The notes: a model not told the origin generated them from the letters alone. DNA of 47,690 nucleotides from Candidatus Omnitrophota bacterium (GCA_017994375.1 JAGOLA010000001.1:1-47690); one strand, 5' to 3'. Positions 19,330 through 40,486 are shown, counted from the stretch's first letter. Numbers and translations: made by a program.

Positions 19330-21165
19330 ATGGGAGCAAAACAAAAGAAACCTCTTCTTTACTTAACCTATCAGAGGTTAAAAGAAATATTTCACCGCAC
19401 CGGCGTAAAACCCAAAAATTTTATTTTACCTTTATTTTTAGGTTTATTAGCCGCGGGCTTTGAAGCTATAAGCGCTGCCCTTTTGATACCTTTGGCCCAA
19501 GCAGTTATCACTATGGATTTTACTTCTTTAAGAGTGCCTTTCTTAACAAGCTTAACTTTTTTAAAACCTTTTCAGAAGTTTATTGACAACGGCGTTTTAG
19601 CTTTTGGGCTAATAGTAGCAGTAGTCTTTTTAGCCGCACTATTAAAAAATGTAATCCAATACCTTTCTTCATTAAGCATTGCTCACCAGCTACGCCGTTT
19701 TAGCAATTCTTTACGCCAGGTTATTTTTGACCGCTACCTTAGTTTCGGAAAATTATTTTTTGACCGCACTAATGCTGGCCATCTAAAGTATATCCTTACT
19801 GGCGGTAACGGCTTAATCATCGAAGAGCTTATGCACTTGCATGCCATATTTTCTACCGCTTTTATGTTTATTGTCTACCTTACTATAATGTTTGCCATTT
19901 CCTGGAAGTTAACCCTTCTTTGCATAGCGGTTTTCCCAATTCTAAATTTCTCTATCCGTTGGTTAATAATAAAAATTCAACAAACTTCTACTCCTTATAT
20001 AAAAGCCCAATTTACCTTGGTAGACCTTTTAAATAATATCCTTTCTTGCCTGCCGTTGGTTAAAGCTTACTCGCGGGAAGAGAGAGAAAAACAGAATTTT
20101 AATAAATCCAGCAATCTATTGCAAGAATGGGAATTTAGCATGGACAAGAAGACACAGCTTACCGAACCTTTCCAGGAAATTATAGTCCATATTGCAGTTT
20201 TAATCATACTTTTACTTATGGCTTTTATGGTAGTAAGAGGAGAGGCTCACCGTCTAAGCAGTTTTTTAGTTTATTTTTATATTCTTCGGCGAGCCGAAAG
20301 AGGATTTGCCATACCTAATAAAATCAAAGCTCTCTTGGCACGGATAAGCGGCCCGGCCGAGGAGCTAGCCGATATTTTTAGCGATAAGGATAAATTTTTT
20401 GTTCCCGGAGGAGACAAACTTTTTAAGGGTTTAAAAGAAAGTATTGATTTTCGTAATTTAAGTTTTTCTTATATCCCCCAAAAGATAGTGTTAAATAATA
20501 TTACTTTCTCTATCAAAAAAGGCGAGATGACTGCGATAGTCGGCCCCAGCGGAGCCGGGAAAAGCACCATTATAAATCTTATAATGCGTTTCTATGATTG
20601 TCCTGTTTCTAGAATTTTTGTAGATAGCGAAGACATCCGGAATTTTAAATTAGAATCTCTAAGACGCCATATTGCTTTAGTTAGCCAAGACACTTTGCTT
20701 TTCAACGACACTTTAAAGGCCAATATAACATACGGCTTTGATCAAGATTTAGACGAAGAAGTTCTTATTACTGCTGCTAAGAAAGCGCGATTATATGATT
20801 TTATCATGGCTTTGCCGGATAAATTTAATACTAGGATAGGAGACAGAGGAGTTCAGCTTTCCGGTGGAGAAAAACAAAGAGTATCCATTATGAGGGCCTT
20901 ATTAAAAAATGCCGAAATATTAATTTTAGACGAAGCCACCAGCTCTTTAGATTCTAGAATCGAACGCTTAATCCAAGAAGCAATCGAAGAAGTTATAAAA
21001 GGTAGGACTACCTTAGTTATAGCACACAGATTATCTACCATTCGTAATACTAATAAGATATTAGTCATAGAAGAAGGAAAGTTAGTAGAGGAAGGAACAT
21101 TGGAGGGTTTGCTCAATAAAAAAGGTAAATTTTATCAATATTGGCAAGAGCAAAAGTTCTATTAA
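19330..21165 (+). CDS. ABC exporter, fused permease-ATPase (MsbA/PglK-type lipid or lipid-linked-oligosaccharide flippase)
   Basis: 611 aa. N-terminal 6-TM exporter domain, Walker A GPSGAGKST, signature LSGGEKQR, Walker B ILILDEATSSLD, H-loop VIAHRLST. Confidence 0.85.
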   Translation: MGAKQKKPLLYLTYQRLKEIFHRTGVKPKNFILPLFLGLLAAGFEAISAALLIPLAQAVITMDFTSLRVPFLTSLTFLKPFQKFIDNGVLAFGLIVAVVFLAALLKNVIQYLSSLSIAHQLRRFSNSLRQVIFDRYLSFGKLFFDRTNAGHLKYILTGGNGLIIEELMHLHAIFSTAFMFIVYLTIMFAISWKLTLLCIAVFPILNFSIRWLIIKIQQTSTPYIKAQFTLVDLLNNILSCLPLVKAYSREEREKQNFNKSSNLLQEWEFSMDKKTQLTEPFQEIIVHIAVLIILLLMAFMVVRGEAHRLSSFLVYFYILRRAERGFAIPNKIKALLARISGPAEELADIFSDKDKFFVPGGDKLFKGLKESIDFRNLSFSYIPQKIVLNNITFSIKKGEMTAIVGPSGAGKSTIINLIMRFYDCPVSRIFVDSEDIRNFKLESLRRHIALVSQDTLLFNDTLKANITYGFDQDLDEEVLITAAKKARLYDFIMALPDKFNTRIGDRGVQLSGGEKQRVSIMRALLKNAEILILDEATSSLDSRIERLIQEAIEEVIKGRTTLVIAHRLSTIRNTNKILVIEEGKLVEEGTLEGLLNKKGKFYQYWQEQKFY

Positions 21166-21184
21166 TGCTGCTTAAAATAAGATT

Positions 21185-21814
21185 ATGGCTGGAAAACAGA
21201 AAGTAATAATTGATTTAGGCTGCGGCTGTAATAAACACCAGGGAGCTATCGGCGTTGACAATATAAAATTAGCCGGGGTTGATATTATACATGACCTTTT
21301 AGATTTTCCTTATCCCTTTAATGATGAAAGCGCCGATGAAGTTATCTTAAGCCATGTTTTAGAACATTTTTATTTAAAAGATATTATTAAAATTTTAGAC
21401 GAAACCGGAAGAATATTAAAAAAAGAGGGAGAATTAACTATTTCTGTCCCCCATGTTTTTTGTAGCGGAGCTTTTATGGATCCCGGCCATAAAAGTTTTT
21501 TTTGTTATGAAACTCTTTACTATTTCACTAAAGAACACACAGCTTATTATAGAAAAGATTTAAAAACTAAATATAACTGGGAGATAAAGAAGCTGTGGAC
21601 TTCGGTAAATTTTTTTAACGATCACTTTGGAAAAATTACTCCTTTAAAAAGAAAAATATCTTCTTTTCTTACCATAATTATGAATTTTATTTTAAGTAAT
21701 ACTACTAGTAAAGTCTTACCGGATATGTTGGTAAAATTCTCTCCCTTTTGGTTAGTTAACATTCACGCAAAGTTACATAAAGTAGAATGTACCGACAAAT
21801 CTACTCAAAGTTGA
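21185..21814 (+). CDS. SAM-dependent methyltransferase (type 11-like)
   Basis: Motif I VIIDLGCGCNK, then EVILSHVLEHF and GRILKKEGEL. Confidence 0.65.
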   Translation: MAGKQKVIIDLGCGCNKHQGAIGVDNIKLAGVDIIHDLLDFPYPFNDESADEVILSHVLEHFYLKDIIKILDETGRILKKEGELTISVPHVFCSGAFMDPGHKSFFCYETLYYFTKEHTAYYRKDLKTKYNWEIKKLWTSVNFFNDHFGKITPLKRKISSFLTIIMNFILSNTTSKVLPDMLVKFSPFWLVNIHAKLHKVECTDKSTQS

Positions 21815-23073
21815 TCCCTTTGGGCTTAAGAAAAGCATTAAGAGGTTTCTTTGCTTTTAAGCCTTGGCAGTTAATTTTTTTACCGTTATACCCTTTGGTT
21901 AGCATTTTAGGTTTTAAAAGAAGAAAGAGAATCATCCCCGATATCGATAAAATTTTGGTTATCAATCTGGGTGCTACAGGCGATAATTTACTTTCTACCC
22001 CAGCTATAAAAGCTTTAAAAGAAAGATTCCCTCAAGCTTCCATTGATATTATGACCGGCAGTTTAACTTCGATGCAGGCTTATCTTAATAATCCAAGGAT
22101 AAGGAGAGTTTTTAGGGTTCAACAATTTCCAACCGCAAGCATCAAATATAAGTTTGCAAAAAAATCAAGAATTATCTTAAGCACCTTAAAAGTTTTTTAT
22201 TATTATCCTACCTTAGTATTAAGCCTGTTATTTAAGAATTATAAATTAGGTATAAATTTTTGTGCCTTTAAAGGAGGGGCTAATTTTTCCGATATTATTA
22301 TGTATCTATGTGGTATACCTAACAGGATAGGCGGTTTTAGCCAGTACCCGGAATTATTAACCGCTAAAAAAGAAAATTTGCACACTTTATCTTGGATAGA
22401 TAGCTATTTAGCGATTGCTTCTTTGGCAGGAGCAGAAACTTTCGATACCGAATTAGAGTTTTTTTTAAGCAATGACGATGAAATTTTTGTCCGGGATTTT
22501 TTAAAAGAAAATAATATCGATGAGCAAAATATCATCTTGGATGTTTCGCCTGGAGCCAATACTTATGTCAATAATAAAAGATGGAATATAGCCAACTTTG
22601 CCGAAGTTATTAATAAACTCAAGGATAATTATAATTTTAACCTTTTATTGTTAGGTTCAAGAGAAGAAGAGCAGTTAATAAGTGATCTTCGAAAGAAATT
22701 AAAAATGAAGGCGGTCTTTTTATTAGGAGCAGAATTATCTAAAGTGGCAGCTTTGTTAAAGAAGAGTGATATTTTATTAACTAATGATAATGCTATTCTT
22801 CATCTTGGCAATGCTGTTGGGGTTAGCCATATTATTTCTGTTTTCGGGCCGACAAATCCTACTAAAATAGTGCCTAAAAATAATCGCAATAAATACCTAG
22901 TTTCTCGCTTAGAATGCGCACCTTGCATTGATATCGATGCTGGGGATGAGTCCAAAAAATGCCCAAGACCCCATGGGCAGGAATGTTTTGATTCCGTAAA
23001 ACCGGATCAAGTTTACAATGAACTAAAGAATTCTTTTTCTCAAGTAACGAAAACTAAAGTCATAAAGAAATGA
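21787..23073 (+). CDS. glycosyltransferase family 9 (heptosyltransferase-like) with N-terminal hydrophobic extension
   Basis: KILVINLGATGDNLLSTPAIKALKERFP is the GT9 N-terminal signature. The C-terminal half has LLTNDNAILHLGNAVG and FGPTNP. An approximately 55-aa extension with a hydrophobic segment precedes the domain. Confidence 0.75.
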   Translation: MYRQIYSKLIPLGLRKALRGFFAFKPWQLIFLPLYPLVSILGFKRRKRIIPDIDKILVINLGATGDNLLSTPAIKALKERFPQASIDIMTGSLTSMQAYLNNPRIRRVFRVQQFPTASIKYKFAKKSRIILSTLKVFYYYPTLVLSLLFKNYKLGINFCAFKGGANFSDIIMYLCGIPNRIGGFSQYPELLTAKKENLHTLSWIDSYLAIASLAGAETFDTELEFFLSNDDEIFVRDFLKENNIDEQNIILDVSPGANTYVNNKRWNIANFAEVINKLKDNYNFNLLLLGSREEEQLISDLRKKLKMKAVFLLGAELSKVAALLKKSDILLTNDNAILHLGNAVGVSHIISVFGPTNPTKIVPKNNRNKYLVSRLECAPCIDIDAGDESKKCPRPHGQECFDSVKPDQVYNELKNSFSQVTKTKVIKK

Positions 23074-24266
23074 AAATTTGTTTTGTAGAAAGAGGCTATC
23101 CCCGCAATAATTATGGCGGAGGAGCCGGAACCTACGTACAGCTTTGTGCCAAAGAGCTTATAAAACTAGGGCATAAGCCTTTTGTGGTTACTAAAAGTTT
23201 GGATAACAAAACCAGAGAATTTAACGATGAAGGAATAATAGTACAAGAAGTAGCCGTAAGAACTTGGCCGTGGTATTTGACTAAAATACCAATTTTAGGA
23301 CCTATCTTGGCAAAATTATTTCAGATAATCGAAGAAGGATTGGCCATCAACAAAAAAATAAAGAATATTCACCGTCAATTTGGCTTAGATATAGTAGAAT
23401 TAGCCGAGACCCCAAATTTTTTATACCCTTTATTTATAAGAATACCTTACGTAGTTCATTTGCACGGAAGTAGTTTTACTTTCAAAAAATACTGCCAAGA
23501 AAAGATACTAGTGGAAGATAAACTGCAGCGATATTTAGAAGGCGTAGTAATTAAAAGAGCCGATACTATTACGTCTCCTTCCGAGTTTTTAAAAGAAGAA
23601 ATTAGTGGAGAATTTAAGATAGGGCCCGATAAAATTAAGGTGATACCTTATCCGATAGACCAAAAACTTCTTTTAATAAAAAAGAAAGAAATCAAAGGCC
23701 CTAAGATTATTTTCTACGCCGGACGATTAGAGAAACGCAAAGGAGTACATATCTTGTTAGAGGCTATTCCGTTAGTAACAGCTAAAGAACCGGCGGTAAA
23801 ATTTTTGTTTTTTGGCAGCAAAGAGGATAAAAATATAAGAGAAAAGATAAAAGCTTACCTTAATGACAGTAATTTAGCGGCCAAGGTTGAATTTTATCCT
23901 TTTACTCCCAAAAATAAATTATTGAATTATTTAGCAGAGGCGGACATTTGCGTAGTTCCGTCATTATGGGATAACTCGCCTAACGTTATTTATGAAGCTA
24001 TGGCCGCCGGTAAAGCCGTAGTTGCCACAGCTGTGGGAGGAATAAAAGAGTTAATAGTAGATAATCAAACCGGAGTATTATTTTCTTCCTATAATAGCAA
24101 AACTTTAGCCGAGAAGATAATTGAGTTGTTAAGCAATAAGGAAAAAAGAGAAAAAATCTCTGCCAAAGCCAAGGAAGAAGCTGCCAGAAGATTTAATGCC
24201 GAGCTAGTAACTCAAGAACGCTTGAAAATATATCAGCATATTTTTTTATGCCAAGAGGAGCAATAG
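23070..24266 (+). CDS. glycosyltransferase family 4
   Basis: GT-B retaining-type EX7E region CVVPSLWDNSPNVIYEAMAAGKAVVATAVGGIKELIVDNQTGVL. ATGA overlap with the upstream gene. Confidence 0.85.
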   Translation: MKICFVERGYPRNNYGGGAGTYVQLCAKELIKLGHKPFVVTKSLDNKTREFNDEGIIVQEVAVRTWPWYLTKIPILGPILAKLFQIIEEGLAINKKIKNIHRQFGLDIVELAETPNFLYPLFIRIPYVVHLHGSSFTFKKYCQEKILVEDKLQRYLEGVVIKRADTITSPSEFLKEEISGEFKIGPDKIKVIPYPIDQKLLLIKKKEIKGPKIIFYAGRLEKRKGVHILLEAIPLVTAKEPAVKFLFFGSKEDKNIREKIKAYLNDSNLAAKVEFYPFTPKNKLLNYLAEADICVVPSLWDNSPNVIYEAMAAGKAVVATAVGGIKELIVDNQTGVLFSSYNSKTLAEKIIELLSNKEKREKISAKAKEEAARRFNAELVTQERLKIYQHIFLCQEEQ

Positions 24267-25030
24267 CCAGAACAATTTATAAAGCTCTTTATAATACCTT
24301 AAGATATTCTTTTGAGGTTAAAAAAGGAGTTGTTTTAGATATCCCGATATTGATGTACCACCAAATTGGTTTAAAACAGCATTCCGAATACCCTTCTATT
24401 TACACCTCTAAAGATAGTTTCGAAAAACAGATGAGAATTTTAAAAGAATCAGGCTATGAAACTATTTATCTTTCAGAATACGCTCAAATTTTGAAGCGGC
24501 CCGGTTCTTCTATCAAGAAAAGAATTGTCATCTGTTTTGACGATGCTTATGAAGGAGTTTATAAATTTGCCTATCCGGTGTTGGCAAAATATAACTTCAA
24601 AGCTGTGGTTTTCATTATAACCGAAAAATTAAAGAAGAAACTCATACCCAGAAGTTTTCCTTTCCTAAGTATTAATCAAATTAAGGAATTGCAGAAGCAT
24701 AATTTTAAAGTAGCCTCACACTCTTATTCTCATGCTGATTTGACAAAAGTTAATAATATAGCTTTAGAACGGGAAATCGGAGAATCTAAAAGAATTTTAG
24801 AAGATATTTTTAGTGCTAAGGTAGAGAGTTTTTCTTATCCGATGAATAAATATAATGCCCAAGTAATAGAAATGGTAAAAAAACACGGTTATACTTGTGC
24901 CTGCACCGATAATTTAGGTTTATATAACTTTAAAGAAGATCTTTTCACCTTAAAAAGGATTGCGATGCTAAATACTATCAGTAAGTTAAAAATTCTTTAT
25001 CGTCTTAGGATAGTCGGTAAAACAGTTTAA
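24248..25030 (+). CDS. polysaccharide deacetylase (NodB-homology) family protein
   Basis: VICFDDAYEGVY (D-D motif) and ASHSYSHADL (His motif). Confidence 0.75.
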   Translation: MPRGAIARTIYKALYNTLRYSFEVKKGVVLDIPILMYHQIGLKQHSEYPSIYTSKDSFEKQMRILKESGYETIYLSEYAQILKRPGSSIKKRIVICFDDAYEGVYKFAYPVLAKYNFKAVVFIITEKLKKKLIPRSFPFLSINQIKELQKHNFKVASHSYSHADLTKVNNIALEREIGESKRILEDIFSAKVESFSYPMNKYNAQVIEMVKKHGYTCACTDNLGLYNFKEDLFTLKRIAMLNTISKLKILYRLRIVGKTV

Positions 25031-25039: not shown

Positions 25040-25849
25040 ATGTTAGGCGCCAGCGCCTATATCTTAGAGAGTGATATTTTTTGCCGGCAAATAGTTAAAT
25101 TATTCGGCAGCCATAATTTTGGTATAAGAGCCAGAGCATTATATTTTATCGATAGTATAAGAAAATTAAATTTAAGATACAAGACTATTTTAGATGCTGG
25201 TTGTGCCGAAGGTTACCTTAGCTTTTACCTGGCTCATAAATTGAAAGATTCAGAAATCGTAGGAGTTGATATCGATAGTGAAAAAATTAAAAAAGCTAAC
25301 GAAGTAGCAAGACATTTTAACAAGAAAAATTTACAATATTTAGAAAAAGACCTTAACTTTTTAGAGCAACAAAAGATAAAAGCAGATTTTATATACTCCT
25401 TGGATGTTATGATTTATCTTAAAGATGATCAAGGAGTTTTAAGACAATTCTATAAGTGTTTAGACAAAAAAGGTTTATTATTCATACACGTACCGAGAGA
25501 AAGCCCGGTTTTTAATAGGCCCAAACTGTATTTTAGAAGATTTCTTTCTTTTGCTAGTAAGATCAATCTTGAAAAAGAAAATATTTTTGAACAAAAAATA
25601 AGAGCTTGTTATAACCAAAAAGACTTAGAGAATAAAATAATTTCAGCCGGATTCCAAATTATACAAGAGAAAATTACTTTCGGTTGCCTGGGAATGATAG
25701 CTCATACTCTTTTTGAGTCGATAAGAAGTAAATCACGGATTTTCCATTACTTATTACTACCTTTGCTACTTTTTTTGGTTTATTTTGATATACTAATACC
25801 TAAAAAAGAAGGAGCAGGGTTGGCAATTCTTGCCCAAAAACAGAGCTAG
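25040..25849 (+). CDS. SAM-dependent methyltransferase with C-terminal hydrophobic tail
   Basis: Motif I ILDAGCAEGYLSFYLA. The C-terminal segment IFHYLLLPLLLFLVYFDILIP looks membrane-associated. Confidence 0.65.
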   Translation: MLGASAYILESDIFCRQIVKLFGSHNFGIRARALYFIDSIRKLNLRYKTILDAGCAEGYLSFYLAHKLKDSEIVGVDIDSEKIKKANEVARHFNKKNLQYLEKDLNFLEQQKIKADFIYSLDVMIYLKDDQGVLRQFYKCLDKKGLLFIHVPRESPVFNRPKLYFRRFLSFASKINLEKENIFEQKIRACYNQKDLENKIISAGFQIIQEKITFGCLGMIAHTLFESIRSKSRIFHYLLLPLLLFLVYFDILIPKKEGAGLAILAQKQS

Positions 25850-25853
25850 ATTC

Positions 25854-33475: not shown

Positions 33476-33489
33476 AGCGAGGCAAAATT

Positions 33490-34494
33490 TTGAAAGAAAA
33501 AATAAGAATCCTTTTTTTACATCAAACCTGGATGGGGTTTGAAGTGCGGGATTATGAGATCCTCAAAAATAATTTTTTCGCTAAAGAATTGCTTATTTAT
33601 AAAGACGTTTTTTTTAAGCTCCCCCAAATTATTAAAGATATTTTGAGTAGCGACTTAGTCTTTTGTTGGTTTGCTTACCGAGTAGCATTGATACCTTTGC
33701 TTATCGCTAAAGTCTTAAGAAAAAAAATTATAGTAGTAATCGGCGGCTGGGAGTGTGCTAGCCAACCGGAAAATGACTACGGAGCTATGAGGCCGGGTTT
33801 TAAATTCTTACTAGCCCGTAGTTTTGTAAGAAGTATAGCTACTTTATCCGATAAAATTATCGCCGTATCTAAATATAATGAACAAGAAATAATAACCAAT
33901 ATCAGACCGTCTTTAGAGAAAATTTCTTTAATATATCTTGGTATCCCAACTGATTGTTGCCAAGGCCAATCTCTACCAAAAGATAATTTAGTACTGACAG
34001 TAGCTAATGTTACAGTCGAGTCGTTTAAAAGAAAAGGCATAGATATTTTTATTAAGGCCGCTAGATTACTTTCAGATACCAAGTTTGTTTTGGCTGGGGA
34101 GATCGATAAAGAGTCCTCTGATTACTTAAGAGATAATTTACCGCAAAATCTTACACTTACTGGTTTTGTCGGCGAAGAACAATTGCATAAGTTATACCAA
34201 CAAGCTAAAGTATATGTTCAGGTATCCTATCATGAGCAGTTCGGGGTAGCTTTGGCCGAAGCTATGGCTCATGGTTGCGTGCCGGTAGTTTCTCAAAGGA
34301 CGGCTTTGCCGGAAGTAGTGGGCAGCAGCGGTTATTATGTACCCTATGCTGATATAGATAGGACCATTGAGGCTATAAAAGAAGCTTTAAGAGACGGTCA
34401 ACGGGGCGAAATTGCCAAGCAACGCATCAAAGAAGAATTTTCTTTAAAGAAAAGGGAAGAATCTTTGGTAAATTTAATTAAAAATTTAGTTTAG
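33490..34494 (+). CDS. glycosyltransferase family 4
   Basis: YVQVSYHEQFGVALAEAMAHGCVPVVSQRTALPEVVGSSGYYV. TTG start per the ORF track, so the start is uncertain. Confidence 0.78.
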   Translation: MKEKIRILFLHQTWMGFEVRDYEILKNNFFAKELLIYKDVFFKLPQIIKDILSSDLVFCWFAYRVALIPLLIAKVLRKKIIVVIGGWECASQPENDYGAMRPGFKFLLARSFVRSIATLSDKIIAVSKYNEQEIITNIRPSLEKISLIYLGIPTDCCQGQSLPKDNLVLTVANVTVESFKRKGIDIFIKAARLLSDTKFVLAGEIDKESSDYLRDNLPQNLTLTGFVGEEQLHKLYQQAKVYVQVSYHEQFGVALAEAMAHGCVPVVSQRTALPEVVGSSGYYVPYADIDRTIEAIKEALRDGQRGEIAKQRIKEEFSLKKREESLVNLIKNLV

Positions 34495-34544
34495 CCGAGA
34501 ATAGGGCTAGGCATAATAAGAGTAATTACAATCAATAATTAATC

Positions 34545-35744
34545 GTGAAAATTGAAGAGAAAAATTTAGCCATTTTTATTAACGCTTACCTTTTTAAATG
34601 GGATAATAATTATTATAGCGATGATAATACAGTTGTTTTTTGTCTTAATATCGCCAAAAAGTTTAAAAGAATAATTATTTTTGCACCGGTATTAAACGGC
34701 GATATTTCGTTAGCCGATAGATTTTATAAGATAAATGGCAATAATTTAAAAGTTATCGCCATACCCAATTATAATGGCAGCACTTATAGCTTAATTTACG
34801 CTGGTTTCAAAGTGATGCCGGCTCTTTATAAAGTTTTAGAATTATTGCAAGACCAAATAGATATTTTGTGGCAGGTCGATTGTCCCAATCCTTTAAATTT
34901 AGTTTTTAATATTTTTTGTAGCGTAAGAAAAATACCAATGGTATTCTTCTTACGCCTGGATGTTATTTCTATTTTGAAAATCAAAAATAGAGGATTTAAA
35001 AGATTTTTCTCTATAATTTTTGCCAAAATTATAGACTGGTTTAATAGAAGATTGTTAGAGAAACATCCGGCTTTTGTAACCGGAGAAAAGTTATATCAAA
35101 GCTACAAGAAAAAGAATAGGTTGGTGTATAAAATTTTTGAGAATTTAATCAGAAAAGAAGAAATCTTAGCTGCTTCCGAAGCTAGAGTGAGAAAAAATAA
35201 CGGCAATTTAGAAATAGTAGGTATTGGCCGGTTAGAAAAGCAGAAGGGATTCGTATATTTGCTAGAGACAGTTCGTTTACTGACCGAGGTTTATTGTATC
35301 AAAGCCCATTTTACGCTTATCGGATCCGGACCGGAAGAGAAAACGTTAAAAGAATATATCCATAAATATAAATTAGAAGATTATGTAGAAATGACAGGAT
35401 TTATAAAGCATGGTGAACTTTTTTCCAGATATTTAGAAAAAGCTGATATTTTAGCACAGCCTTCTTTAGAAGAAGGCGTACCTAAAACTATTTTCGAAGC
35501 TATGGCTTCAGGTATACCAATAATTGCCAGCCGAGTAGGAGGATTACCTTATTTAATTAAAAATGGAGTAAACGGATTATTAGTAAAGCCGGCTAATCCT
35601 GAAGAGTTGGCAGAAGCTATCTTACGTTATAAAAATGACTTTGCTCTTTTTAAGAATATCGCTTTGAATAACTTAAGCTATGTCGATGGCTTTATTTTTG
35701 AAAAACAAAGAGATTTCATTTTAGAAACGATTAAGAATTTATAA
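34545..35744 (+). CDS. glycosyltransferase family 4
   Basis: LAQPSLEEGVPKTIFEAMASGIPIIASRVGGLPYLIKNGVNGLLV. GTG start per the ORF track. Confidence 0.82.
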   Translation: MKIEEKNLAIFINAYLFKWDNNYYSDDNTVVFCLNIAKKFKRIIIFAPVLNGDISLADRFYKINGNNLKVIAIPNYNGSTYSLIYAGFKVMPALYKVLELLQDQIDILWQVDCPNPLNLVFNIFCSVRKIPMVFFLRLDVISILKIKNRGFKRFFSIIFAKIIDWFNRRLLEKHPAFVTGEKLYQSYKKKNRLVYKIFENLIRKEEILAASEARVRKNNGNLEIVGIGRLEKQKGFVYLLETVRLLTEVYCIKAHFTLIGSGPEEKTLKEYIHKYKLEDYVEMTGFIKHGELFSRYLEKADILAQPSLEEGVPKTIFEAMASGIPIIASRVGGLPYLIKNGVNGLLVKPANPEELAEAILRYKNDFALFKNIALNNLSYVDGFIFEKQRDFILETIKNL

Positions 35745-35753
35745 CTATTCTCT

Positions 35754-36770
35754 ATGGAATGTCCTTTTGTTTCCGTAATAATGGCTTGCCGTAACGAAAG
35801 AGATTATATTGCCAAATCTTTAACTTCTTTACTTAAAACAACTTATCCTCTAGATAAATTAGAAATTATCGTTATTGATGGAGAAAGCACTGATGGAACA
35901 AGAGAAGCCTTAGAAGAGATGGCCAGTAAAAATAATATTGTTAAGGTATTAACTAATTCTAAAAAGATTATACCGGCAGCTTTAAATATCGGTATCAAAA
36001 ATTCCCAGGGCGAGATTATCATAAGGGCCGATGCCCACGCCGAATTTTCTTCAGATTATATAAGTAAATGTGTAGAGTATTTGCATAAAACCGATGCTTG
36101 GTGTGTAGGCGGGACGTTAGAGACCGCTTCTTTAGCCGATACTTTGATAGCAAAAGCCATCGTAGCAGTTTTATCATCTCCTTTTGGGGTCGGATTTTCT
36201 TATTTTAGAATAGGTAAAGAACCCCGTTATACAGATACTGTTCCTTTCGGAGCCTTTAGAAAAGAGGTTTTTAATAAAATAGGATTGTATGATGAATGCC
36301 TGGTAAGAAACGAAGATAACGAATTTTCTAGCCGGATAATAAAAAACAAAGGTAAGATATTTATTACCCCCGAAATAAAAAGCACCTATTACGCTCGGAC
36401 TAATTTAAAGAGCTTTCTAGAGAATAGTTATGCCAACGGTCTTTGGAATGCTTTTATCCAAAGATTTTATCCTTATGCTTTTAGATGGCGCCATTTCTTG
36501 CCGTTAGTTTTTTTTATGGGGTGTGTATTAGTTTTTATATCTTTAATCTTAGGGGTAATTTTGAAAGCAACTTACTTATATTCGGTATCTTTAATTTTAG
36601 TCCCTTATTTTTTAGTCAATATCTTATCATCCTTAACCTTTATAAAAAAATTAAAGATGCGATCTTTTATCCTAACTATCGGATTGTATTTTTTATTTCA
36701 TTTTGTCTATGGTTACGGGATTCTTAAGGGTTGGATGCTAGTATTACGAAACTTGCGGCCGCAAGAGTAA
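35754..36770 (+). CDS. glycosyltransferase family 2 with C-terminal transmembrane segments
   Basis: VSVIMACRNERDYIAKSL, VIDGESTDGT, RADAH and NEDNEF (ED motif). Two to three C-terminal TM helices follow. Confidence 0.8.
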   Translation: MECPFVSVIMACRNERDYIAKSLTSLLKTTYPLDKLEIIVIDGESTDGTREALEEMASKNNIVKVLTNSKKIIPAALNIGIKNSQGEIIIRADAHAEFSSDYISKCVEYLHKTDAWCVGGTLETASLADTLIAKAIVAVLSSPFGVGFSYFRIGKEPRYTDTVPFGAFRKEVFNKIGLYDECLVRNEDNEFSSRIIKNKGKIFITPEIKSTYYARTNLKSFLENSYANGLWNAFIQRFYPYAFRWRHFLPLVFFMGCVLVFISLILGVILKATYLYSVSLILVPYFLVNILSSLTFIKKLKMRSFILTIGLYFLFHFVYGYGILKGWMLVLRNLRPQE

Positions 36771-36879: not shown

Positions 36880-38040
36880 ATGAAAAATAATACAATTAGC
36901 TATACTAAGCCCTCTATAGGAGTCGCCGAAAAGAACGAAATTCTAAAAACTATTTCTTCTGATTGGTTAACCGCCGGCCCAAAAGTTAAACTCTTTGAGC
37001 AAAGATTAACTCAATATCTTGGTTGCAAATATATTCAAGTTCTAAATTCATGCACCGCAGCTTTAGATTTAGCCGTATTAGCCTGCGGAATCGGCAATAG
37101 AGACGAAGTCATTACGACTCCCTTTACTTTTTGTGCTACGATAAATTCTATAATACACAGCAAAGCCAAGCCGGTTTTTGCCGATATTAGCAGAGATACT
37201 TTTAATATTGATCCTTTAAGCATCGCCGATAATATTACTAAAAAAACTAAAGCCGTTTTACCTATGCATTATGGCGGTATGCCTTGTGATATGGACCAGA
37301 TATTTAAGATTGCTAAGAAATATAATCTTAAAGTCATCGAAGATGCCGCTCATGCTATCGGTGCCGAATATTACAAAAGAAAAATAGGAACGCTTTCCGA
37401 TGCTACTTGCTTTAGTTTTCATGCTACTAAGAATATCACGACGGCCGAGGGAGGCGCGATTGCTACTAATAATAAAAAAATCATAGAATTTATAAAGAAG
37501 GTTTATTTGCACGGCATAAATCGTGAAAGTTGGCAAAGACATAAAGTAGGGAGTTGGAAATACCGTGTTATTTATCCTGGCTTTAAGACTAATATGAGCG
37601 ATATCTTAGCATCTTTAGGTATACATCAATTAGAGAAAATAGAGGATTTTATTCGAAAAAGAAGACAAATAGCGCAGTTTTATGATAGTTATTTTAAGAA
37701 AGAGCCTTTACTGGACTTACAAAATACTTCTTATACAGTAAAACATGCTCATCATCTTTACCCGATTATATTAAAAACAGAAAGGCTTAAAATAAACCGA
37801 GACCAGTTCATAGAAAAGCTTAAGAAAAGAGGCGTTATGACTTCTGTTCATTTTATACCGGTGTATAAGCATCCTGCTTATAAGTCTTTTATAAAGCCGG
37901 TAGATATCAAGAGATTAAAGAACACCGAATATATCTATAATCGTTTAATATCATTACCAATTTATCCTCTTTTGAGTTTAAAGCAAGCTAGGTATGTAAT
38001 CGAAAGCGTTAAAGATATAATTAAGAAAAACAGAAAATAA
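36880..38040 (+). CDS. DegT/DnrJ/EryC1/StrS-family sugar aminotransferase (PglE/WecE-like)
   Basis: PLP-lysine region SFHATKNITTAEGGAI, plus EDAAHAIGA. Confidence 0.88.
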   Translation: MKNNTISYTKPSIGVAEKNEILKTISSDWLTAGPKVKLFEQRLTQYLGCKYIQVLNSCTAALDLAVLACGIGNRDEVITTPFTFCATINSIIHSKAKPVFADISRDTFNIDPLSIADNITKKTKAVLPMHYGGMPCDMDQIFKIAKKYNLKVIEDAAHAIGAEYYKRKIGTLSDATCFSFHATKNITTAEGGAIATNNKKIIEFIKKVYLHGINRESWQRHKVGSWKYRVIYPGFKTNMSDILASLGIHQLEKIEDFIRKRRQIAQFYDSYFKKEPLLDLQNTSYTVKHAHHLYPIILKTERLKINRDQFIEKLKKRGVMTSVHFIPVYKHPAYKSFIKPVDIKRLKNTEYIYNRLISLPIYPLLSLKQARYVIESVKDIIKKNRK

Positions 38041-38041
38041 G

Positions 38042-38626
38042 TTGATTAAAAGATTTTTTGATATTATTTTTTCGTTAATAGTATTATATTTTAGTCTACC
38101 AATTTTTGTTATTTTTTTCTTTTTGATAAAATTGGATTCTGCGGGGGCTGTTTTCTTTAAACAGAAAAGAATCGGTAAAAACGGAAAAGCCTTTTTAATT
38201 TTTAAATTTCGCACCATGCGGGCAGAGAAAGGCCCTCTTTTAACTACTTCTAAGGACAATAGGATTACTTCTTTAGGGCGGTTTTTACGGAGGATTAATT
38301 TTGACGAACTTCCGCAATTTTGGAATATAGTTAAAGGGCAAATGAGCGTAGTTGGGCCTCGTCCGGAAATCCCGGAGATAGTAGAAAATTTTACCGAAGA
38401 GCAAAAAAAAATACTTAACTTTAAACCCGGCTTTACCTCTTATGCTACTCTTAAATGTTTAAACGAAGAAAAAATATTAGATGATAAAAATTTGATGCAG
38501 CAGTATTATAATGAACAATTACCGTTAAAAATAAAATATGATTTAGAATATTTTTATCATAACAGCAATTTTTTAAATGATTTATTAATAATTTTAAAAA
38601 CAGTAGGTAAGACTTTTTGGTCTTAA
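38042..38626 (+). CDS. small monotopic phosphoglycosyl transferase (bacterial sugar transferase, PglC/WbaP-C-terminal type)
   Basis: KRFFDIIFSLIVL re-entrant helix, FFKQKRIGKNGKAFLIFKFRTM, and DELPQFWNIVKGQMSVVGPRPE. Confidence 0.88.
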   Translation: MIKRFFDIIFSLIVLYFSLPIFVIFFFLIKLDSAGAVFFKQKRIGKNGKAFLIFKFRTMRAEKGPLLTTSKDNRITSLGRFLRRINFDELPQFWNIVKGQMSVVGPRPEIPEIVENFTEEQKKILNFKPGFTSYATLKCLNEEKILDDKNLMQQYYNEQLPLKIKYDLEYFYHNSNFLNDLLIILKTVGKTFWS

Positions 38627-38629
38627 GAT

Positions 38630-40486
38630 ATGGATAAAAGGTTAAAAAAATTAAAAGCTTCTTTAAAAGGGTTATTGTCCGTTAAATATTTTATAGACCT
38701 TGTCTTAATAATTACTAGTTATTGGTTATCTTATTTAGTAAGATTTGAAGGAATAGTTCCGGTCGAAGAAGTTCTTATTTTTAAAGAATCTCTTTTAACC
38801 TTTGTTTTAGGGTTTTTAATTTGTGATTTATTATTCGGGCTTACCAGAAGCATTTGGAGATATACTAGCTTGCAGGACATTGAGAATATCGGGTTTTTCG
38901 TCTTGAGCGGAAGCGGCTTAAGCGTGCTTATCGGTTTGATATTTTTTCCTAAAGAGATAGCCAATGTTCCTAGATCGATATACATAATAAATTTTTTCTT
39001 TCTTTTCTTTGGTATAAGCGGAACCAGGCTTTCTTACCGTATCTTATTTGACCAATGGCGAAAGATTAAGAAAGGCAAAGAGAATGTTTTAATAGTAGGT
39101 GACCAAAACATCGGAGTTTCGTTGCAGCAATCTATTTTGCAAGACCGTACTCATCAGTTTAATATCGTTGGTTTTATTACTTTGGTAAAAAGCCGTATTG
39201 GCAATACCGTAAATGCTACTCCGATAATCGGCTTACCCGAAGATATTCCTAGCATAGCTAAGAACGAAGATATAAAGTGTATTTTTATAGCCTTAGATTC
39301 TGCTTCTAATGAAGAGATGAAGAAAGTAATAAAAATATCTCAAAACACCGGAGTGTTAACCAGGATCAGCCCCAGCATAGTAGATTTAATTAACAGTAAA
39401 TTTTCGCTTAATGATTTACGAGAAGTAAAATTTGAAGACTATCTGGATAGACAGCCAGTTAAATTTGATTTGGATAAATTGAAAGGAGAGTTTTTTGGGA
39501 AAAATATTTTAGTAACCGGTGCCGGCGGTTCTATCGGAGCTAGTTTGTGCGAAGAGTTATTGGTTTTTGAGCCAGCGAGGCTAATAGCGATAGACTTATC
39601 AGAAAATAACCTTTTTGGCGTTTCGCAAAGGTTAACGGAGATAAAAAAGAAAATGCCCGCTAACTCTACTGAGATAATATATAAAATTTTAGATATTAAA
39701 GACCAAGTTTTACTGGGAAAATTTTTAGAAGCTAACTCTGTAGATTATCTGATACATACTGCAGCTTTAAAGCATGTTCCTTTCTGCGAGGAGAACCCGC
39801 AGATGGCGATACAAACTAATCTTTACGGTACTTTAAATCTTCTATTATTAGCTGATAGAGTAAAAATCAAGAAATTTATATATATTTCGACGGATAAAGC
39901 TGTTAATCCAATATCGATAATGGGTGTTACCAAGAGAATTGGAGAATTATTAGTAAAAGATTTTAGCCATAACAAGTCTTCTCAAACAAAATTTATGGCA
40001 GTTAGATTCGGAAATGTCATTGGCAGTTCCGGCAATGTAGTAGAAATATTTACCCATCAACTACAAAAAGGTTTACCGCTTACTATTACCGATTCTCGGA
40101 TGGAACGTTACTTTATGAGTTTAGAAGAAGCTACTAAGCTAATAATGGAAGCTATAGTTATAGGAGGCGAGGGTGAGACTTTTGTTTTGGATATGGGGCG
40201 AGCAGTAAAGATAAGAGACTTAGCCGACGATATTGCTTTATTTTATGGCCGGCAAATCAAAGAAAAAGATATTATCTATATCGGTAAAAGGAAAGCCGAA
40301 AAAATAACCGAGGATTTATTTGGGCTAAACGAAGAAAAAATGCCAACGAGCTTAGGAAGAATTTTTGAAGTCAGAGAAAAAGTACCAACAGAAGGTTTAA
40401 TCGATAAAGTAAAAAAATTATGCCAAGACCTTAATCAGCTTAATGAACGAGAAATAAGAGAAGAGCTTTTTGCTATAATAGAATAA
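38630..40486 (+). CDS. membrane-anchored nucleotide-sugar 4,6-dehydratase (CapD/PglF/WbpM family)
   Basis: N-terminal 4 TM segments, Rossmann motif VTGAGGSIGASLCEEL, STDKAVNP, and FGNVIGSSGNV. Confidence 0.88.
   Translation: MDKRLKKLKASLKGLLSVKYFIDLVLIITSYWLSYLVRFEGIVPVEEVLIFKESLLTFVLGFLICDLLFGLTRSIWRYTSLQDIENIGFFVLSGSGLSVLIGLIFFPKEIANVPRSIYIINFFFLFFGISGTRLSYRILFDQWRKIKKGKENVLIVGDQNIGVSLQQSILQDRTHQFNIVGFITLVKSRIGNTVNATPIIGLPEDIPSIAKNEDIKCIFIALDSASNEEMKKVIKISQNTGVLTRISPSIVDLINSKFSLNDLREVKFEDYLDRQPVKFDLDKLKGEFFGKNILVTGAGGSIGASLCEELLVFEPARLIAIDLSENNLFGVSQRLTEIKKKMPANSTEIIYKILDIKDQVLLGKFLEANSVDYLIHTAALKHVPFCEENPQMAIQTNLYGTLNLLLLADRVKIKKFIYISTDKAVNPISIMGVTKRIGELLVKDFSHNKSSQTKFMAVRFGNVIGSSGNVVEIFTHQLQKGLPLTITDSRMERYFMSLEEATKLIMEAIVIGGEGETFVLDMGRAVKIRDLADDIALFYGRQIKEKDIIYIGKRKAEKITEDLFGLNEEKMPTSLGRIFEVREKVPTEGLIDKVKKLCQDLNQLNEREIREELFAIIE

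What the first reader, a model, noticed from the sequence alone, without database searches (positions are those of the whole stretch)
19330..40486. 21-kb single-direction glycan locus with pgl-like logic: PglF/PglE/PglC-type priming, MsbA/PglK-type ABC flippase, Wzy_C ligase, and no Wzx/Wzy/Wzz or Wzm/Wzt
Twenty consecutive + strand genes have mostly overlapping or under-20-nt junctions, and only one 109-bp gap (36771-36879). They encode:
- a fused ABC exporter
- 11 glycosyltransferases (7 GT4, 3 GT2, 1 GT9)
- two methyltransferases and a NodB deacetylase
- one Wzy_C/O-antigen-ligase-type membrane protein
- a membrane CapD/PglF-type 4,6-dehydratase, a DegT/PglE-type aminotransferase and a small PglC-type phosphoglycosyl transferase

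No Wzx flippase, Wzy polymerase-plus-Wzz pair or Wzm/Wzt two-component transporter is recognisable. That combination predicts a long, non-polymerised oligosaccharide of up to about 12 sugars. It would be built on a polyprenyl carrier starting from a 4-amino-4,6-dideoxy-hexose, flipped by the ABC protein as PglK does in Campylobacter, and transferred en bloc by the Wzy_C protein.

Wzy_C enzymes include both WaaL (lipid A-core ligase) and PglL/PilO (general O-linked protein oligosaccharyltransferases). The acceptor could therefore be lipid A-core (LOS-like; the GT9 gene favours this) or proteins (a general O-glycosylation system in an uncultivated lineage).
Basis: partly seen in the sequence, partly recalled or inferred. 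Interest (0 to 1): 0.62.

Follow-up and report, generated by a model that had tools for sequence, protein, structure and literature searches.

The report
ABC-led polysaccharide locus lacking Wzx
This gene run is the sugar-building half of a larger slime or capsule export system in an uncultured Omnitrophota bacterium, and its unusual feature is that an ABC pump, not the usual Wzx flippase, appears to carry the lipid-linked sugar units across the inner membrane.

Summary
The gene content is real: 19 (not 20) co-directional genes with the stated families, all under purifying selection. A conserved HTH_17 gene at 19021-19278 is the true first gene.

The "no Wzy/Wzz" premise is a window-edge artefact. 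The window stops at a 100-N scaffold gap. Just beyond it, on the same strand, lie a class-3 OPX, a Wzc-like PCP-2a tyrosine autokinase and a second, strong Wzy_C gene.

In relatives a conserved frame surrounds a hypervariable GT cassette: HTH, ABC, small PGT, FAD reductase, GGDEF, TPR, PilZ, barrel, OPX, PCP, WzyC2, TPR. Each cassette carries its own divergent Wzy_C-like protein and never a Wzx. Two relatives have no Wzx hit anywhere in the genome.

The ABC protein is a distinct, patchy Omnitrophota clade, HepA-like rather than PglK. It is separate from the MsbA-like paralogue found in all 41 close relatives searched. lpxC, waaA and a GT9-rich locus lie elsewhere.

Best reading: a c-di-GMP-controlled, Wzy/PCP-2a/OPX-type secreted polysaccharide with an ABC flippase replacing Wzx. 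The ABC-flippase idea is supported. The non-polymerised, en bloc LOS or O-glycosylation idea is not favoured. This is a new variant of a known kind.

The parts
19021..19278 (+). Small HTH_17 DNA-binding protein (85 aa), 51 nt upstream of the ABC gene. It is the likely locus regulator and the real first gene of the frame.
   Evidence: Pfam HTH_17 at 58.8 bits. It is 57-69% identical and lies upstream of the ABC gene in G009, G002, G012, G056 and G130: directly adjacent in G009 and G002, 0.6-1.8 kb away in the others.
19330..21165 (+). Fused TMD-NBD ABC half-transporter of the HepA-like Omnitrophota clade. It is the proposed flippase for the polyprenyl-PP-linked repeat unit.
   Evidence: Pfam ABC_membrane plus ABC_tran. 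NCBIfam scores: HepA_fam 478 > MsbA 390 > PglK 213, all below their cut-offs. Walker A, signature, Walker B and H-loop motifs are intact. The clade is monophyletic (97/99) and distant from the MsbA-like paralogues.
21185..21814 (+). Methyltransferase (tailoring)
   Evidence: Pfam Methyltransf_11; dN/dS 0.09.
21787..23073 (+). GT9-family glycosyltransferase
   Evidence: Pfam Glyco_transf_9 at 73 bits, C-terminal half only. It is one of 10 GT9 hits in the genome.
23070..24266 (+). GT4 glycosyltransferase
   Evidence: Pfam Glycos_transf_1 plus Glyco_transf_4.
24248..25030 (+). NodB-type polysaccharide deacetylase
   Evidence: Pfam Polysacc_deac_1 at 89.9 bits.
25040..25849 (+). SAM methyltransferase (tailoring)
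   Evidence: Pfam Methyltransf_31/12/23.
25830..29319 (+). Three GT4 glycosyltransferases (25830-27077, 27077-28222, 28213-29319)
   Evidence: Pfam Glycos_transf_1 at 124-144 bits.
29316..30215 (+). GT2 glycosyltransferase
   Evidence: Pfam Glycos_transf_2.
30218..31531 (+). WzyC1: a cassette-specific, divergent Wzy_C-family polytopic membrane protein. It is the proposed repeat-unit polymerase.
   Evidence: Pfam Wzy_C at 26-32 bits. hhalign to the WzyC2 family gives 93% probability with shared SR, FGxGxG and HN-x9-G-xx-G motifs. Only 5 homologues were found. It has the lowest dN/dS, 0.05.
31539..36770 (+). GT2, GT4, GT4, GT4 and GT2 glycosyltransferases (31539-32297, 32273-33475, 33490-34494, 34545-35744, 35754-36770)
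   Evidence: Pfam.
36880..38040 (+). DegT/PseC/PglE-type sugar 4-aminotransferase
   Evidence: Pfam DegT at 391.6 bits. NCBIfam PseC at 378 bits, below its 423.5 cut-off.
38042..38626 (+). Small monotopic phosphoglycosyl transferase (PglC/WcfS-like), the priming enzyme
   Evidence: Pfam Bac_transf at 187 bits. DELPQ and PRP motifs are present.
38630..40486 (+). Membrane-anchored CapD/PglF/WbpM-type UDP-HexNAc 4,6-dehydratase
   Evidence: Pfam Polysacc_synt_2 at 306.6 bits plus CoA_binding_3.
40508..41617 (+). Geranylgeranyl-reductase-like FAD protein. It is a conserved frame gene, possibly modifying the polyprenyl carrier.
   Evidence: Pfam FAD_binding_3. It is 53-58% identical in 6 relatives and keeps its place in the frame.
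41620..42918 (+). HAMP-GGDEF protein (c-di-GMP input), a frame gene
   Evidence: Pfam HAMP plus GGDEF. It is 52-57% identical in relatives.
43359..43388 (+). Consensus sigma-70-like promoter that starts the export operon
   Evidence: TTGACA-18-TATAAT, 12 of 12 matches. A terminator-like hairpin lies at 43044-43063.
43414..45186 (+). TPR protein of the export operon
   Evidence: Pfam TPR families; syntenic in relatives.
45205..45579 (+). PilZ c-di-GMP receptor
   Evidence: Pfam PilZ at 56 bits; syntenic in relatives.
45579..46898 (+). Outer-membrane beta-barrel (BBP2_2 / EpsL-like), the presumed partner of the class-3 OPX
   Evidence: Pfam BBP2_2. NCBIfam gives weak TIGR03016 and EpsL matches.
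46906..47690 (+). Coiled-coil/TPR lipoprotein, cut by the window end and the scaffold gap. OPX (C112:47897-48976), PCP-2a (49004-50851), WzyC2 (50851-52149), TPR2 (52146-53129) and GDSL (53261-54331) follow outside the window.

Best explanation
The 19 genes are the biosynthetic half of a roughly 35-kb, two-operon system for a secreted or capsular heteropolysaccharide of the Wzy/PCP-2a/OPX type. It runs from window 19021 to about C112:54331. In this system a HepA-like ABC half-transporter takes the place of Wzx.

Proposed steps. All are inferred from gene families and context; only the family assignments and the comparative genomics were tested.
1. CapD/PglF and DegT make a UDP-4-amino-4,6-dideoxy-HexNAc.
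2. The small PGT puts it on polyprenyl phosphate.
3. Eleven GTs, two methyltransferases and a NodB deacetylase build a large decorated repeat unit in the cytoplasm.
4. The ABC protein flips it. Because the ABC protein does not depend on the cassette, it presumably reads the lipid-PP end, as PglK and Wzk do.
5. The cassette-specific WzyC1 polymerises the units.
6. The Wzc-like PCP-2a, the class-3 OPX and the BBP2 barrel export the polymer.
7. HAMP-GGDEF and PilZ put the system under c-di-GMP control, and the HTH_17 protein regulates transcription.
8. The conserved WzyC2 (with TPR2), translationally coupled to the PCP, performs a further cassette-independent step. Ligation or anchoring of the polymer, or co-polymerisation, are the candidates. 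This step is unresolved.
For: Gene families:
- Families of the locus and export genes were assigned by Pfam and NCBIfam.
- OPX, PCP-2a (Walker A and B motifs plus a YSYQYYY tail) and WzyC2 follow on the same contig and strand.

Conserved frame around a variable cassette:
- tblastn synteny shows the frame ABC - variable cassette - PGT - GGR - GGDEF - TPR - PilZ - barrel - OPX - PCP - WzyC2 - TPR2. It is gap-free in G021 and G022. G009 and G005 hold it with small differences (no OPX hit in G009, no TPR2 hit in G005, some frame genes upstream of the ABC gene). It is partial in G018 and G008.
- The export module recurs in a 39%-identical marine homologue.
- Within the family, all 9 ABC-positive genomes also have a WzyC2 orthologue.
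- Each cassette has one protein of about 11 TM helices. It is Wzy_C by Pfam in 5 of 6 family relatives and in G130.

No Wzx:
- The Wzx HMM gives no hit inside any framed locus, and none at all in G009 (95% complete) or G018.
- The genome's own three Wzx genes sit in other glycan loci.

The ABC protein is not MsbA:
- A better-scoring paralogue lies on C28 (507 against 390 bits).
- An MsbA-like paralogue is present in all 41 close relatives searched.
- The ABC clade is monophyletic and separated from it by 2.1 substitutions per site.

WzyC1 against WzyC2:
- WzyC1 has 5 homologues. WzyC2 has at least 354 and the ABC protein at least 677.
- G022 and G008 share a cassette Wzy_C at 57% identity while their ABC proteins are 44% identical.

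Selection:
- dN/dS is 0.05-0.15 for the 18 genes compared with L033; the ABC gene runs off that locus.
Against: - No step has been tested biochemically.
- Outside the window's class the ABC-led cassette occurs without an adjacent PCP/OPX/WzyC2 module (G130, G056, G124).
- Across the phylum the ABC clade (41 of 251 genomes) is much commoner than WzyC2 orthologues (8 of 251). Five of the seven other WzyC2-positive genomes lack the ABC protein at E<=1e-120. The two halves are therefore separable.
- Eleven GTs is large for one repeat unit.
- Adjacency to the export genes crosses a 100-N scaffold gap.
- Wzx absence rests on one HMM (PF01943) and on incomplete MAGs. MurJ or another MOP protein could flip the unit.
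- Which of the two Wzy_C proteins polymerises cannot be told from sequence. The WzyC2 model merely resembles WaaL, as any family member would.
Confidence: 0.55

Rival explanations
1. This would be a pgl/Wzk-like pathway: a single long glycan of about 12 sugars is built on polyprenyl-PP, flipped by the ABC protein and transferred en bloc by WzyC1, acting as a WaaL- or PglL-type ligase, to lipid A-core or to proteins. The neighbouring PCP/OPX/WzyC2 operon would be a separate or optional add-on.
For: - ABC-led cassettes with their own Wzy_C and the DegT-PGT-CapD trio exist without an adjacent PCP/OPX module in another class (G130).
- The ABC clade is far more widespread than WzyC2.
- Eleven GTs suit one long glycan.
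- Both Wzy_C proteins carry the H-N-x9-G-x-x-G ligase-type motif (the motif definition is from memory).
- lpxC and waaA are present, so lipid A-core exists as an acceptor.
- An exosortase/PEP-CTERM system exists, and WzyC2 weakly matches the 'exosortase-associated O-glycosylation ligase' model.
Against: - WzyC1-type proteins are cassette-specific and hypervariable (5 homologues; no BLAST-level similarity between cassettes). Ligases and O-OTases follow the acceptor and tolerate many glycans.
- In the family, the ABC gene and the export operon co-occur in 9 of 9 genomes and are syntenic.
- The export operon has no other GT or PGT source in the frame.
- A PCP-2a tyrosine autokinase and an OPX imply a high-molecular-weight polymer.
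- The genome has at least four further Wzy_C genes that could be WaaL.
- GT9 genes are common here.
Confidence: 0.2
2. A classical ABC-transporter-dependent, or H. pylori-like processive, pathway. The whole polymer is finished in the cytoplasm, exported by the ABC protein, and passed to PCP/OPX or ligated by a Wzy_C protein.
For: ABC, PCP and OPX occur together. Wzk of H. pylori flips complete O-chains (PMC2841628).
Against: - The transporter is a fused ABCB-type half-transporter, not Wzm/Wzt or KpsMT.
- The PCP is type 2a with a kinase and a Tyr tail, not PCP-3.
- Two Wzy_C proteins and 11 different GTs point to block assembly of a complex unit, not processive synthesis.
Confidence: 0.1
3. 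The ABC protein is not part of the glycan pathway. It would be a lipid, drug or peptide exporter that happens to flank the locus. Flipping would be done by an unlinked Wzx, MurJ or unknown protein.
For: - All family scores are below their curated cut-offs.
- The nearest solved structures are generic ABCB exporters.
- The genome has three Wzx genes elsewhere.
Against: - The ABC gene heads the cassette in 10 of the 11 loci examined, across four families (in G097 it sits inside the GT region). An HTH_17 gene lies upstream of it in own, G009, G002, G012, G056 and G130.
- It co-occurs with the export module inside the family.
- G009 and G018 have no Wzx hit.
- A separate MsbA-like paralogue is present in all 41 close relatives searched.
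Confidence: 0.1

Closest known systems
Wzx/Wzy-dependent EPS pathways with PCP-2a, class-3 OPX and a partner beta-barrel (Myxococcus xanthus EPS/BPS/MASC; PMC9603273, PMC12819527)
   Same: - A PGT-primed lipid-linked repeat unit.
- Wzy_C-family polytopic enzymes.
- A Wzc-like tyrosine autokinase co-polymerase.
- A Poly_export+SLBB OPX lacking an outer-membrane-spanning domain, next to a beta-barrel.
   Different: - No Wzx in the locus, and none in the genome for two relatives.
- A conserved ABC half-transporter heads the locus.
- Two Wzy_C paralogues, one cassette-specific and one conserved.
- PilZ and GGDEF genes are built into the frame.
Helicobacter pylori Wzk and Campylobacter jejuni PglK pathways (PMC2841628, PMC4990322)
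   Same: - A fused ABC half-transporter flips a polyprenyl-PP-glycan in the absence of Wzx.
- A Wzy_C-family enzyme acts downstream.
- PglF/E/C-type priming, as in pgl.
   Different: - Those pathways have no polymerase, PCP or OPX, and they ligate to lipid A-core or transfer to protein.
- Here the PglK model scores 213 bits against a cut-off of 1000, lower than the MsbA and HepA models.
- A PCP-2a/OPX module is attached.
Anabaena heterocyst envelope polysaccharide genes (HepA ABC exporter, HepC PGT; HEP island alr2825-alr2841, PMC13555669)
   Same: - The best-scoring curated model for the ABC protein is HepA_fam_ABC (478 bits).
- The PGT also hits HepC.
- Both are GT-rich envelope-polysaccharide loci led by an ABC exporter whose substrate is undefined.
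   Different: - The score is below the equivalog cut-off (725).
- The phylum is different.
- The composition of the HEP island could not be checked here (paper not held).
XrtA/PEP-CTERM-associated EPS loci (NCBIfam TIGR03027, TIGR03018, TIGR03016, TIGR03097 families)
   Same: - The OPX, kinase, barrel and O-antigen-ligase-like proteins all find these models as first or near-first hits.
- The genome has an exosortase module and PEP-CTERM tails.
   Different: - All scores are below their cut-offs.
- The exosortase is on another contig.
- Those loci are not described as ABC-led.
Hypervariable capsule and O-antigen loci with a conserved frame (Klebsiella/E. coli group 1 cps, Acinetobacter K loci; from general knowledge). 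Also the 25-kb hypervariable polysaccharide cassette reported in Omnitrophota (bioRxiv 10.64898/2026.06.07.730766).
   Same: Conserved export genes flank a GT cassette that is replaced between lineages and carries its own Wzy. Cassette types are shared across genera.
   Different: In those loci Wzx travels with the cassette. Here the flippase candidate is a frame gene.

Membership tests
PglK/Wzk-type ABC flippase of lipid-linked oligosaccharides | Fused TMD-NBD type IV ABC half-transporter with intact ATPase motifs | tested here: met
   Pfam ABC_membrane plus ABC_tran. Walker A GPSGAGKS, signature LSGGE, Walker B ILILDE and H-loop AHR are present.
PglK/Wzk-type ABC flippase of lipid-linked oligosaccharides | Sequence membership in the curated PglK model (NF050066, cut-off 1000 bits) | tested here: not met
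   212.8 bits, ranking below HepA (478) and MsbA (390).
PglK/Wzk-type ABC flippase of lipid-linked oligosaccharides | Encoded in a polyprenyl-dependent glycan locus that has no Wzx | tested here: met
   no MOP/Wzx gene was found in 11 ABC-led loci.
PglK/Wzk-type ABC flippase of lipid-linked oligosaccharides | Demonstrated flipping of polyprenyl-PP-glycan | not testable with these tools
   Needs complementation of Wzx-deficient E. coli K-12 reporters or an in vitro assay.
MsbA (housekeeping lipid A-core flippase) | Score over TIGR02203 cut-off (602), and the best or only such gene in the genome | tested here: not met
   389.8 bits. C28:10503-12320 scores 506.8.
MsbA (housekeeping lipid A-core flippase) | Universal presence in LPS-making relatives | tested here: not met
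   The clade is present in 9 of 24 family genomes and 41 of 251 phylum genomes. The MsbA-like paralogue is present in all 41 close relatives searched.
HepA-family ABC transporter (NF045513) | Score over equivalog cut-off (725 bits) | tested here: not met
   477.6 bits. It is the best hit, but below the cut-off.
Wzx/Wzy-dependent polysaccharide pathway | Phosphoglycosyl transferase that primes a polyprenyl carrier | tested here: met
   Bac_transf at 187 bits; TIGR03025 at 218 bits, below its cut-off.
Wzx/Wzy-dependent polysaccharide pathway | Wzx (MOP/PST) flippase in the locus | tested here: not met
   PF01943 hits only C132, C53 and C77 in the window's genome, and none inside the relatives' loci.
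Wzx/Wzy-dependent polysaccharide pathway | Wzy polymerase: a polytopic, repeat-unit-specific protein | tested here: inconclusive
   WzyC1 is a cassette-specific Wzy_C-family protein. Polymerase activity cannot be told apart from ligase activity by sequence.
Wzx/Wzy-dependent polysaccharide pathway | PCP-2a co-polymerase with tyrosine autokinase, plus an OPX | tested here: met
   Wzz+GNVR+AAA_31, TIGR01007 at 162 bits (cut-off 108) and a Tyr-rich tail; Poly_export+SLBB. All lie outside the window, at C112:47897-50851.
WaaL O-antigen ligase | Wzy_C fold and motifs | tested here: met
   The WzyC2 model (pLDDT 93) has 7tpg_B WaaL as its top PDB hit, E 4.6e-7, TM 0.59/0.63. WzyC1 is homologous to WzyC2 by hhalign. 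The feature is shared by the whole family, so it does not discriminate.
WaaL O-antigen ligase | Tracks the acceptor (core), not the donor glycan; conserved between strains with different glycans | tested here: not met
   Not met for WzyC1: 5 homologues, and none in relatives' cassettes. WzyC2 does meet this feature.
PglL/PilO/TfpM O-oligosaccharyltransferase | Match to a curated O-OTase model (TfpM NF058641, cut-off 600) | tested here: not met
   WzyC1 has no NCBIfam hit. WzyC2 scores 23 bits. No curated PglL or PilO sequences were available for a tree.
ABC-transporter-dependent capsule/O-antigen pathway (Wzm/Wzt, KpsMT) | Separate ABC-2 permease and NBD, and a PCP-3 without kinase | tested here: not met
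   The exporter is fused and of the ABCB type. The PCP carries a kinase domain and a Tyr tail.
XrtA/PEP-CTERM EPS locus | Scores over cut-offs for TIGR03027, TIGR03018, TIGR03016 and TIGR03097 | tested here: not met
   135.6 against 180; 140.2 against 230.7; 42.4 against 90.9; 36.2 against 188.
XrtA/PEP-CTERM EPS locus | Exosortase and PEP-CTERM proteins in the genome | tested here: met
   PF09721 at 196.9 bits on C3. Two PEP-CTERM tails lie on C38. They are not linked to this locus.

The most novel reading that the evidence does not exclude
Omnitrophota may carry a phylum-wide 'hybrid' assembly scheme. In it a cassette-independent ABCB-type half-transporter has replaced Wzx as the flippase that feeds Wzy-type periplasmic polymerisation and PCP-2a/OPX export. 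Hypervariable GT cassettes could then be swapped without co-transferring a matching flippase. A conserved Wzy_C-TPR enzyme next to the PCP would add a further ligation or anchoring step.
Probability: 0.4. Interest if true: 0.7.

Novelty: new variant of a known kind. Interest (0 to 1): 0.5.

Why it matters
Textbook schemes keep Wzx/Wzy-dependent and ABC-dependent polysaccharide assembly apart. Wzx specificity is also a known bottleneck when glycan cassettes are moved between hosts.

A natural, widespread design would bear on both points. Here a relaxed ABC flippase would serve many unrelated cassettes and hand them to a Wzy/PCP-2a/OPX machine. That would blur the classification. It would explain how these small-genome, surface-dependent bacteria diversify their coats, and it would offer a portable flippase for glycoengineering.

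The result also corrects the record for this locus. It is most likely a c-di-GMP-controlled secreted polymer, not an LOS or a general O-glycosylation system.

Tried and rejected
1. AlphaFold2 on WzyC1 with its 6-sequence alignment gave pLDDT 41, which is unusable. No fold search was run on it.
2. Sequence searches of WzyC1 and WzyC2 against PDB chains found nothing relevant.
3. The fold search with the good WzyC2 model gave WaaL and then RodA. That confirms the fold but cannot separate ligase from polymerase, because no Wzy_C-type polymerase structure ranked.
4. A tree against curated WaaL, PglL/PilO and Wzy sets could not be built, as no reference sequences were on hand. NCBIfam models were used instead and gave no membership.
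5. Rfam over the window found tRNAs only, with no riboswitch ahead of either operon.
6. Literature searches for an ABC protein replacing Wzx in a Wzy pathway found no described case. The paper on glycosyltransferase genes outside the HEP island (PMC1951851), tried for the hepA context, is not held.
8. The reading 'housekeeping MsbA plus LPS core locus' was rejected. A better MsbA-like gene lies on C28, waaA on C58, lpxC on C39 and a four-GT9 cluster on C83.
9. Tight co-occurrence of the ABC protein and WzyC2 holds in the family (9 of 9 genomes) but failed at phylum scale. It is therefore not used as a general rule.

Full report
**Observation.**
- The ORF listing gives 19 consecutive + strand ORFs in 19330-40486.
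- The 109-nt gap at 36771-36879 is real. With these start codons there is also a 50-nt gap at 34495-34544.
- A near relative from another sample (L033, a 440-kb ENA contig) has the same 19 genes in the same order. Its products are 77-93% identical. dS is 0.6-1.0 and dN/dS 0.05-0.15 for the 18 genes compared; the ABC gene runs off that locus. These are real, constrained genes.
- The boundaries are arbitrary, however. An 85-aa HTH_17 gene (19021-19278) lies 51 nt upstream of the ABC gene. It is 57-69% identical upstream of the ABC gene in five other genomes.
- The tight run also continues through a geranylgeranyl-reductase-like FAD protein and a HAMP-GGDEF protein to 42918.

**The window edge.**
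- The window is C112:1-47690 of a 79-kb scaffold. It stops exactly at a 100-N gap at 47691-47790.
- After a terminator-like hairpin and a 12/12 consensus promoter at 43359-43388 comes a second + strand operon: TPR, PilZ, a BBP2_2/EpsL-like barrel and a coiled-coil lipoprotein.
- Beyond the gap follow a Poly_export+SLBB OPX (47897-48976) and a Wzz+GNVR+P-loop PCP-2a with Walker A and B motifs and a YSYQYYY tail (49004-50851).
- Next come a second Wzy_C protein with a strong hit, 70 bits (WzyC2, 50851-52149, sharing its start base with the PCP stop), a TPR protein and a GDSL protein.
- 'No Wzy, no Wzz' is therefore true of the window but not of the locus.

**The rest of the genome** (1.43 Mb, 89% complete).
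- Named homologues are all Candidatus Omnitrophota.
- lpxC (C39) and waaA (C58) are present.
- A better MsbA candidate lies on C28: 507 against 390 bits on TIGR02203.
- There are three Wzx-type genes, each inside a different glycan locus: C132 with NeuB, C53 and C77.
- There are six Wzy_C hits and ten GT9 hits. The cassette's GT9 is among the weakest of the ten, and four cluster on C83.
- The locus is thus neither the LPS core locus nor the home of the only MsbA, and its GT9 gene says little about the acceptor.

**Comparative anatomy.**
- Orthologues of the ABC protein (44-52% identity) occur in 9 of 24 genomes of the same family. An MsbA-like paralogue of about 32% identity occurs in all 41 genomes searched.
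- I fetched 20-50 kb around eight of these orthologues and laid the C112 proteins on them. This shows a conserved frame: ABC - [10-22 kb of GT genes with hardly any similarity between genomes] - small PGT - FAD reductase (53-58%) - HAMP-GGDEF (52-57%) - TPR - PilZ - barrel - OPX - PCP-2a (46-48%) - WzyC2 (42-48%) - TPR2.
- The frame is gap-free in G021 and G022. G009 and G005 hold it with small differences (no OPX hit in G009, no TPR2 hit in G005, some frame genes upstream of the ABC gene). In G018 and G008 it is cut by contig ends.
- This also supports the adjacency across the N gap.
- The same export module surrounds a 39%-identical WzyC2 homologue from a marine sample. In another lineage WzyC2 and the TPR protein are fused.
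- Every variable cassette has one protein of 460-480 aa with about 11 TM helices. Pfam calls it a divergent Wzy_C in five of six. None is a Wzx.
- A six-frame search with the Wzx HMM over the nine genomes finds no hit inside any framed locus. It finds none at all in G009 (95% complete) or G018.

**Phylum scale.**
- The ABC clade is present in 41 of 251 genomes (31 of 175 genera).
- It is monophyletic (97/99) and 2.1 substitutions per site away from the MsbA-like paralogues.
- Four loci from other families again start with the ABC gene, or in G097 contain it. They hold GT cassettes, a small PGT and Wzy_C-like or unclassifiable polytopic proteins, and they hold no Wzx.
- One of them (G130) has a cassette visibly related to ours, including DegT-PGT-CapD, but no PCP/OPX within 10 kb.
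- WzyC2 orthologues are rarer: 8 of 251 genomes, all in one class.
- The ABC-led cassette is therefore the older and wider module. In this family it is coupled to the c-di-GMP/PCP/OPX/WzyC2 operon.

**The two Wzy_C proteins.**
- Profile-profile comparison shows they are homologous: 93% probability over 347 columns, with shared SR, FGxGxG and H-N-x9-G-x-x-G motifs.
- WzyC1 has 5 homologues among 5.8 billion clustered proteins. WzyC2 has at least 354 and the ABC protein at least 677.
- Within its own cassette type WzyC1 is the most conserved gene (93% identity, dN/dS 0.05).
- G022 and G008 share a cassette Wzy_C at 57% identity, although their ABC proteins are only 44% identical.
- A protein that is unique to a cassette but tightly constrained within it behaves like a repeat-unit polymerase. 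WaaL and PglL-type enzymes follow the acceptor and tolerate many glycans (general knowledge).
- WzyC2 is cassette-independent, translationally coupled to the PCP, and partnered with (sometimes fused to) a TPR protein.
- Its AF2 model (pLDDT 93) is closest to WaaL 7tpg_B (E 4.6e-7, TM 0.59/0.63) and then to RodA. Any member of the family would give that result, so its role stays open.

**Mechanism proposed** (inferred, not shown).
1. CapD/PglF and DegT make a UDP-4-amino-4,6-dideoxy-HexNAc. No Pfam acetyltransferase hit occurs among the 19 genes, so the amine may stay free.
2. The small PGT primes polyprenyl phosphate.
3. Eleven GTs, two methyltransferases and the NodB deacetylase build a large decorated unit.
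4. The ABC half-transporter, whose ATPase motifs are intact, flips it.
5. WzyC1 polymerises it.
6. PCP-2a, the class-3 OPX and the barrel export it.
7. GGDEF and PilZ gate the process with c-di-GMP, and HTH_17 controls transcription.

That a frame gene rather than a cassette gene supplies the flippase fits a PglK/Wzk-like enzyme that reads the lipid-pyrophosphate end.

**Rivals.**
It is disfavoured by the cassette-specificity of WzyC1, by the synteny and 9-of-9 co-occurrence with the export operon in the family, and by the lack of any other GT or PGT source for that operon.
- *A classical ABC-dependent pathway.* This is unlikely, because the exporter is a fused ABCB type, the PCP is type 2a with a kinase, and Wzy_C enzymes are present.
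- *An unrelated ABC exporter.* This is unlikely given its fixed position and the Wzx-free genomes.

**Comparison with known systems.**
- The export half works like the Myxococcus-type Wzx/Wzy pathways with a class-3 OPX and a barrel (PMC9603273, PMC12819527).
- The flipping step works like H. pylori Wzk or C. jejuni PglK (PMC2841628). The protein is not a member of the PglK, MsbA or HepA equivalog families by score.
- The frame-plus-cassette layout is that of capsule K loci. It matches the hypervariable polysaccharide cassettes reported for Omnitrophota (bioRxiv 10.64898/2026.06.07.730766).
- I found no described Wzy/PCP-2a/OPX pathway in which an ABC protein replaces Wzx. I therefore rate this a new variant of a known kind, of moderate interest, resting on genomic inference only.

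**Caveats.**
- The genomes are MAGs.
- Wzx absence was tested with one HMM, plus Pfam on proteins picked by a crude hydropathy count.
- The scaffold gap is unresolved.
- The WzyC1 model failed.

Noticed in passing
window 19021-19278: An 85-aa HTH_17 (excisionase/MerR-like) gene lies 51 nt upstream of the ABC gene. It is 57-69% identical upstream of the ABC gene in G009, G002, G012, G056 and G130: directly adjacent in G009 and G002, 0.6-1.8 kb away in the others. That makes it more conserved than the ABC protein itself. It sits downstream of a four-tRNA cluster (16612-17412) for which another reader noted a duplicated tRNA-Val 3' end.
   Followed up: partly
window 47691 onward (C112:47691-47790): The window ends at a 100-N scaffold gap inside a repeat-rich coiled-coil lipoprotein gene. 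Two other 100-N gaps exist in the genome, on C23 and C37.
   Followed up: yes
G000 C3:8394-16113 and C38:6639-10965: A complete exosortase module is present: an XrtA-like exosortase, an EpsI-like protein, a histidine kinase, a sigma-54-type response regulator, a TPR protein, and rpoN nearby. Two proteins with PEP-CTERM tails are also present. None of this is linked to the locus.
   Followed up: partly
G000 C132, C53:1-9333, C77:10801-30141, C83:1150-6668: This 1.4-Mb genome holds at least three further glycan loci, each with its own Wzx; one also has NeuB. It has six Wzy_C hits and ten GT9 hits, four of them clustered on C83, which is the likely LPS core locus.
   Followed up: partly
P0166-P0170; L035:2585-4444: WzyC2 homologues occur as Wzy_C::TPR fusions of 619-621 aa directly after the PCP gene. 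This is a Rosetta-stone link between WzyC2 and the separate TPR2 gene that follows it here.
   Followed up: partly
L037-L039 (G130:C7) and L015-L017 (G021:C4): Some ABC-led cassettes also carry a UbiA prenyltransferase and PMT_2-type GT-C enzymes, which hints at periplasmic glycosylation from polyprenyl-P-sugar donors. G130 has a PGT::CapD fusion of 813 aa.
   Followed up: no
window 40508-41617: The geranylgeranyl-reductase-like FAD protein is among the best conserved frame genes (53-58% identity) and keeps its place beside the PGT. This suggests the polyprenyl carrier itself may be modified.
   Followed up: partly
G005:C1 (10276, 260383, 936673): One complete relative carries three full-length paralogues of the ABC clade. 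Several ABC-led loci can therefore coexist in one genome.
   Followed up: no
C112:49004-50851: In the PCP kinase domain the Walker A' motif reads GADMR rather than DxDxR. Its first Asp is replaced.
   Followed up: no
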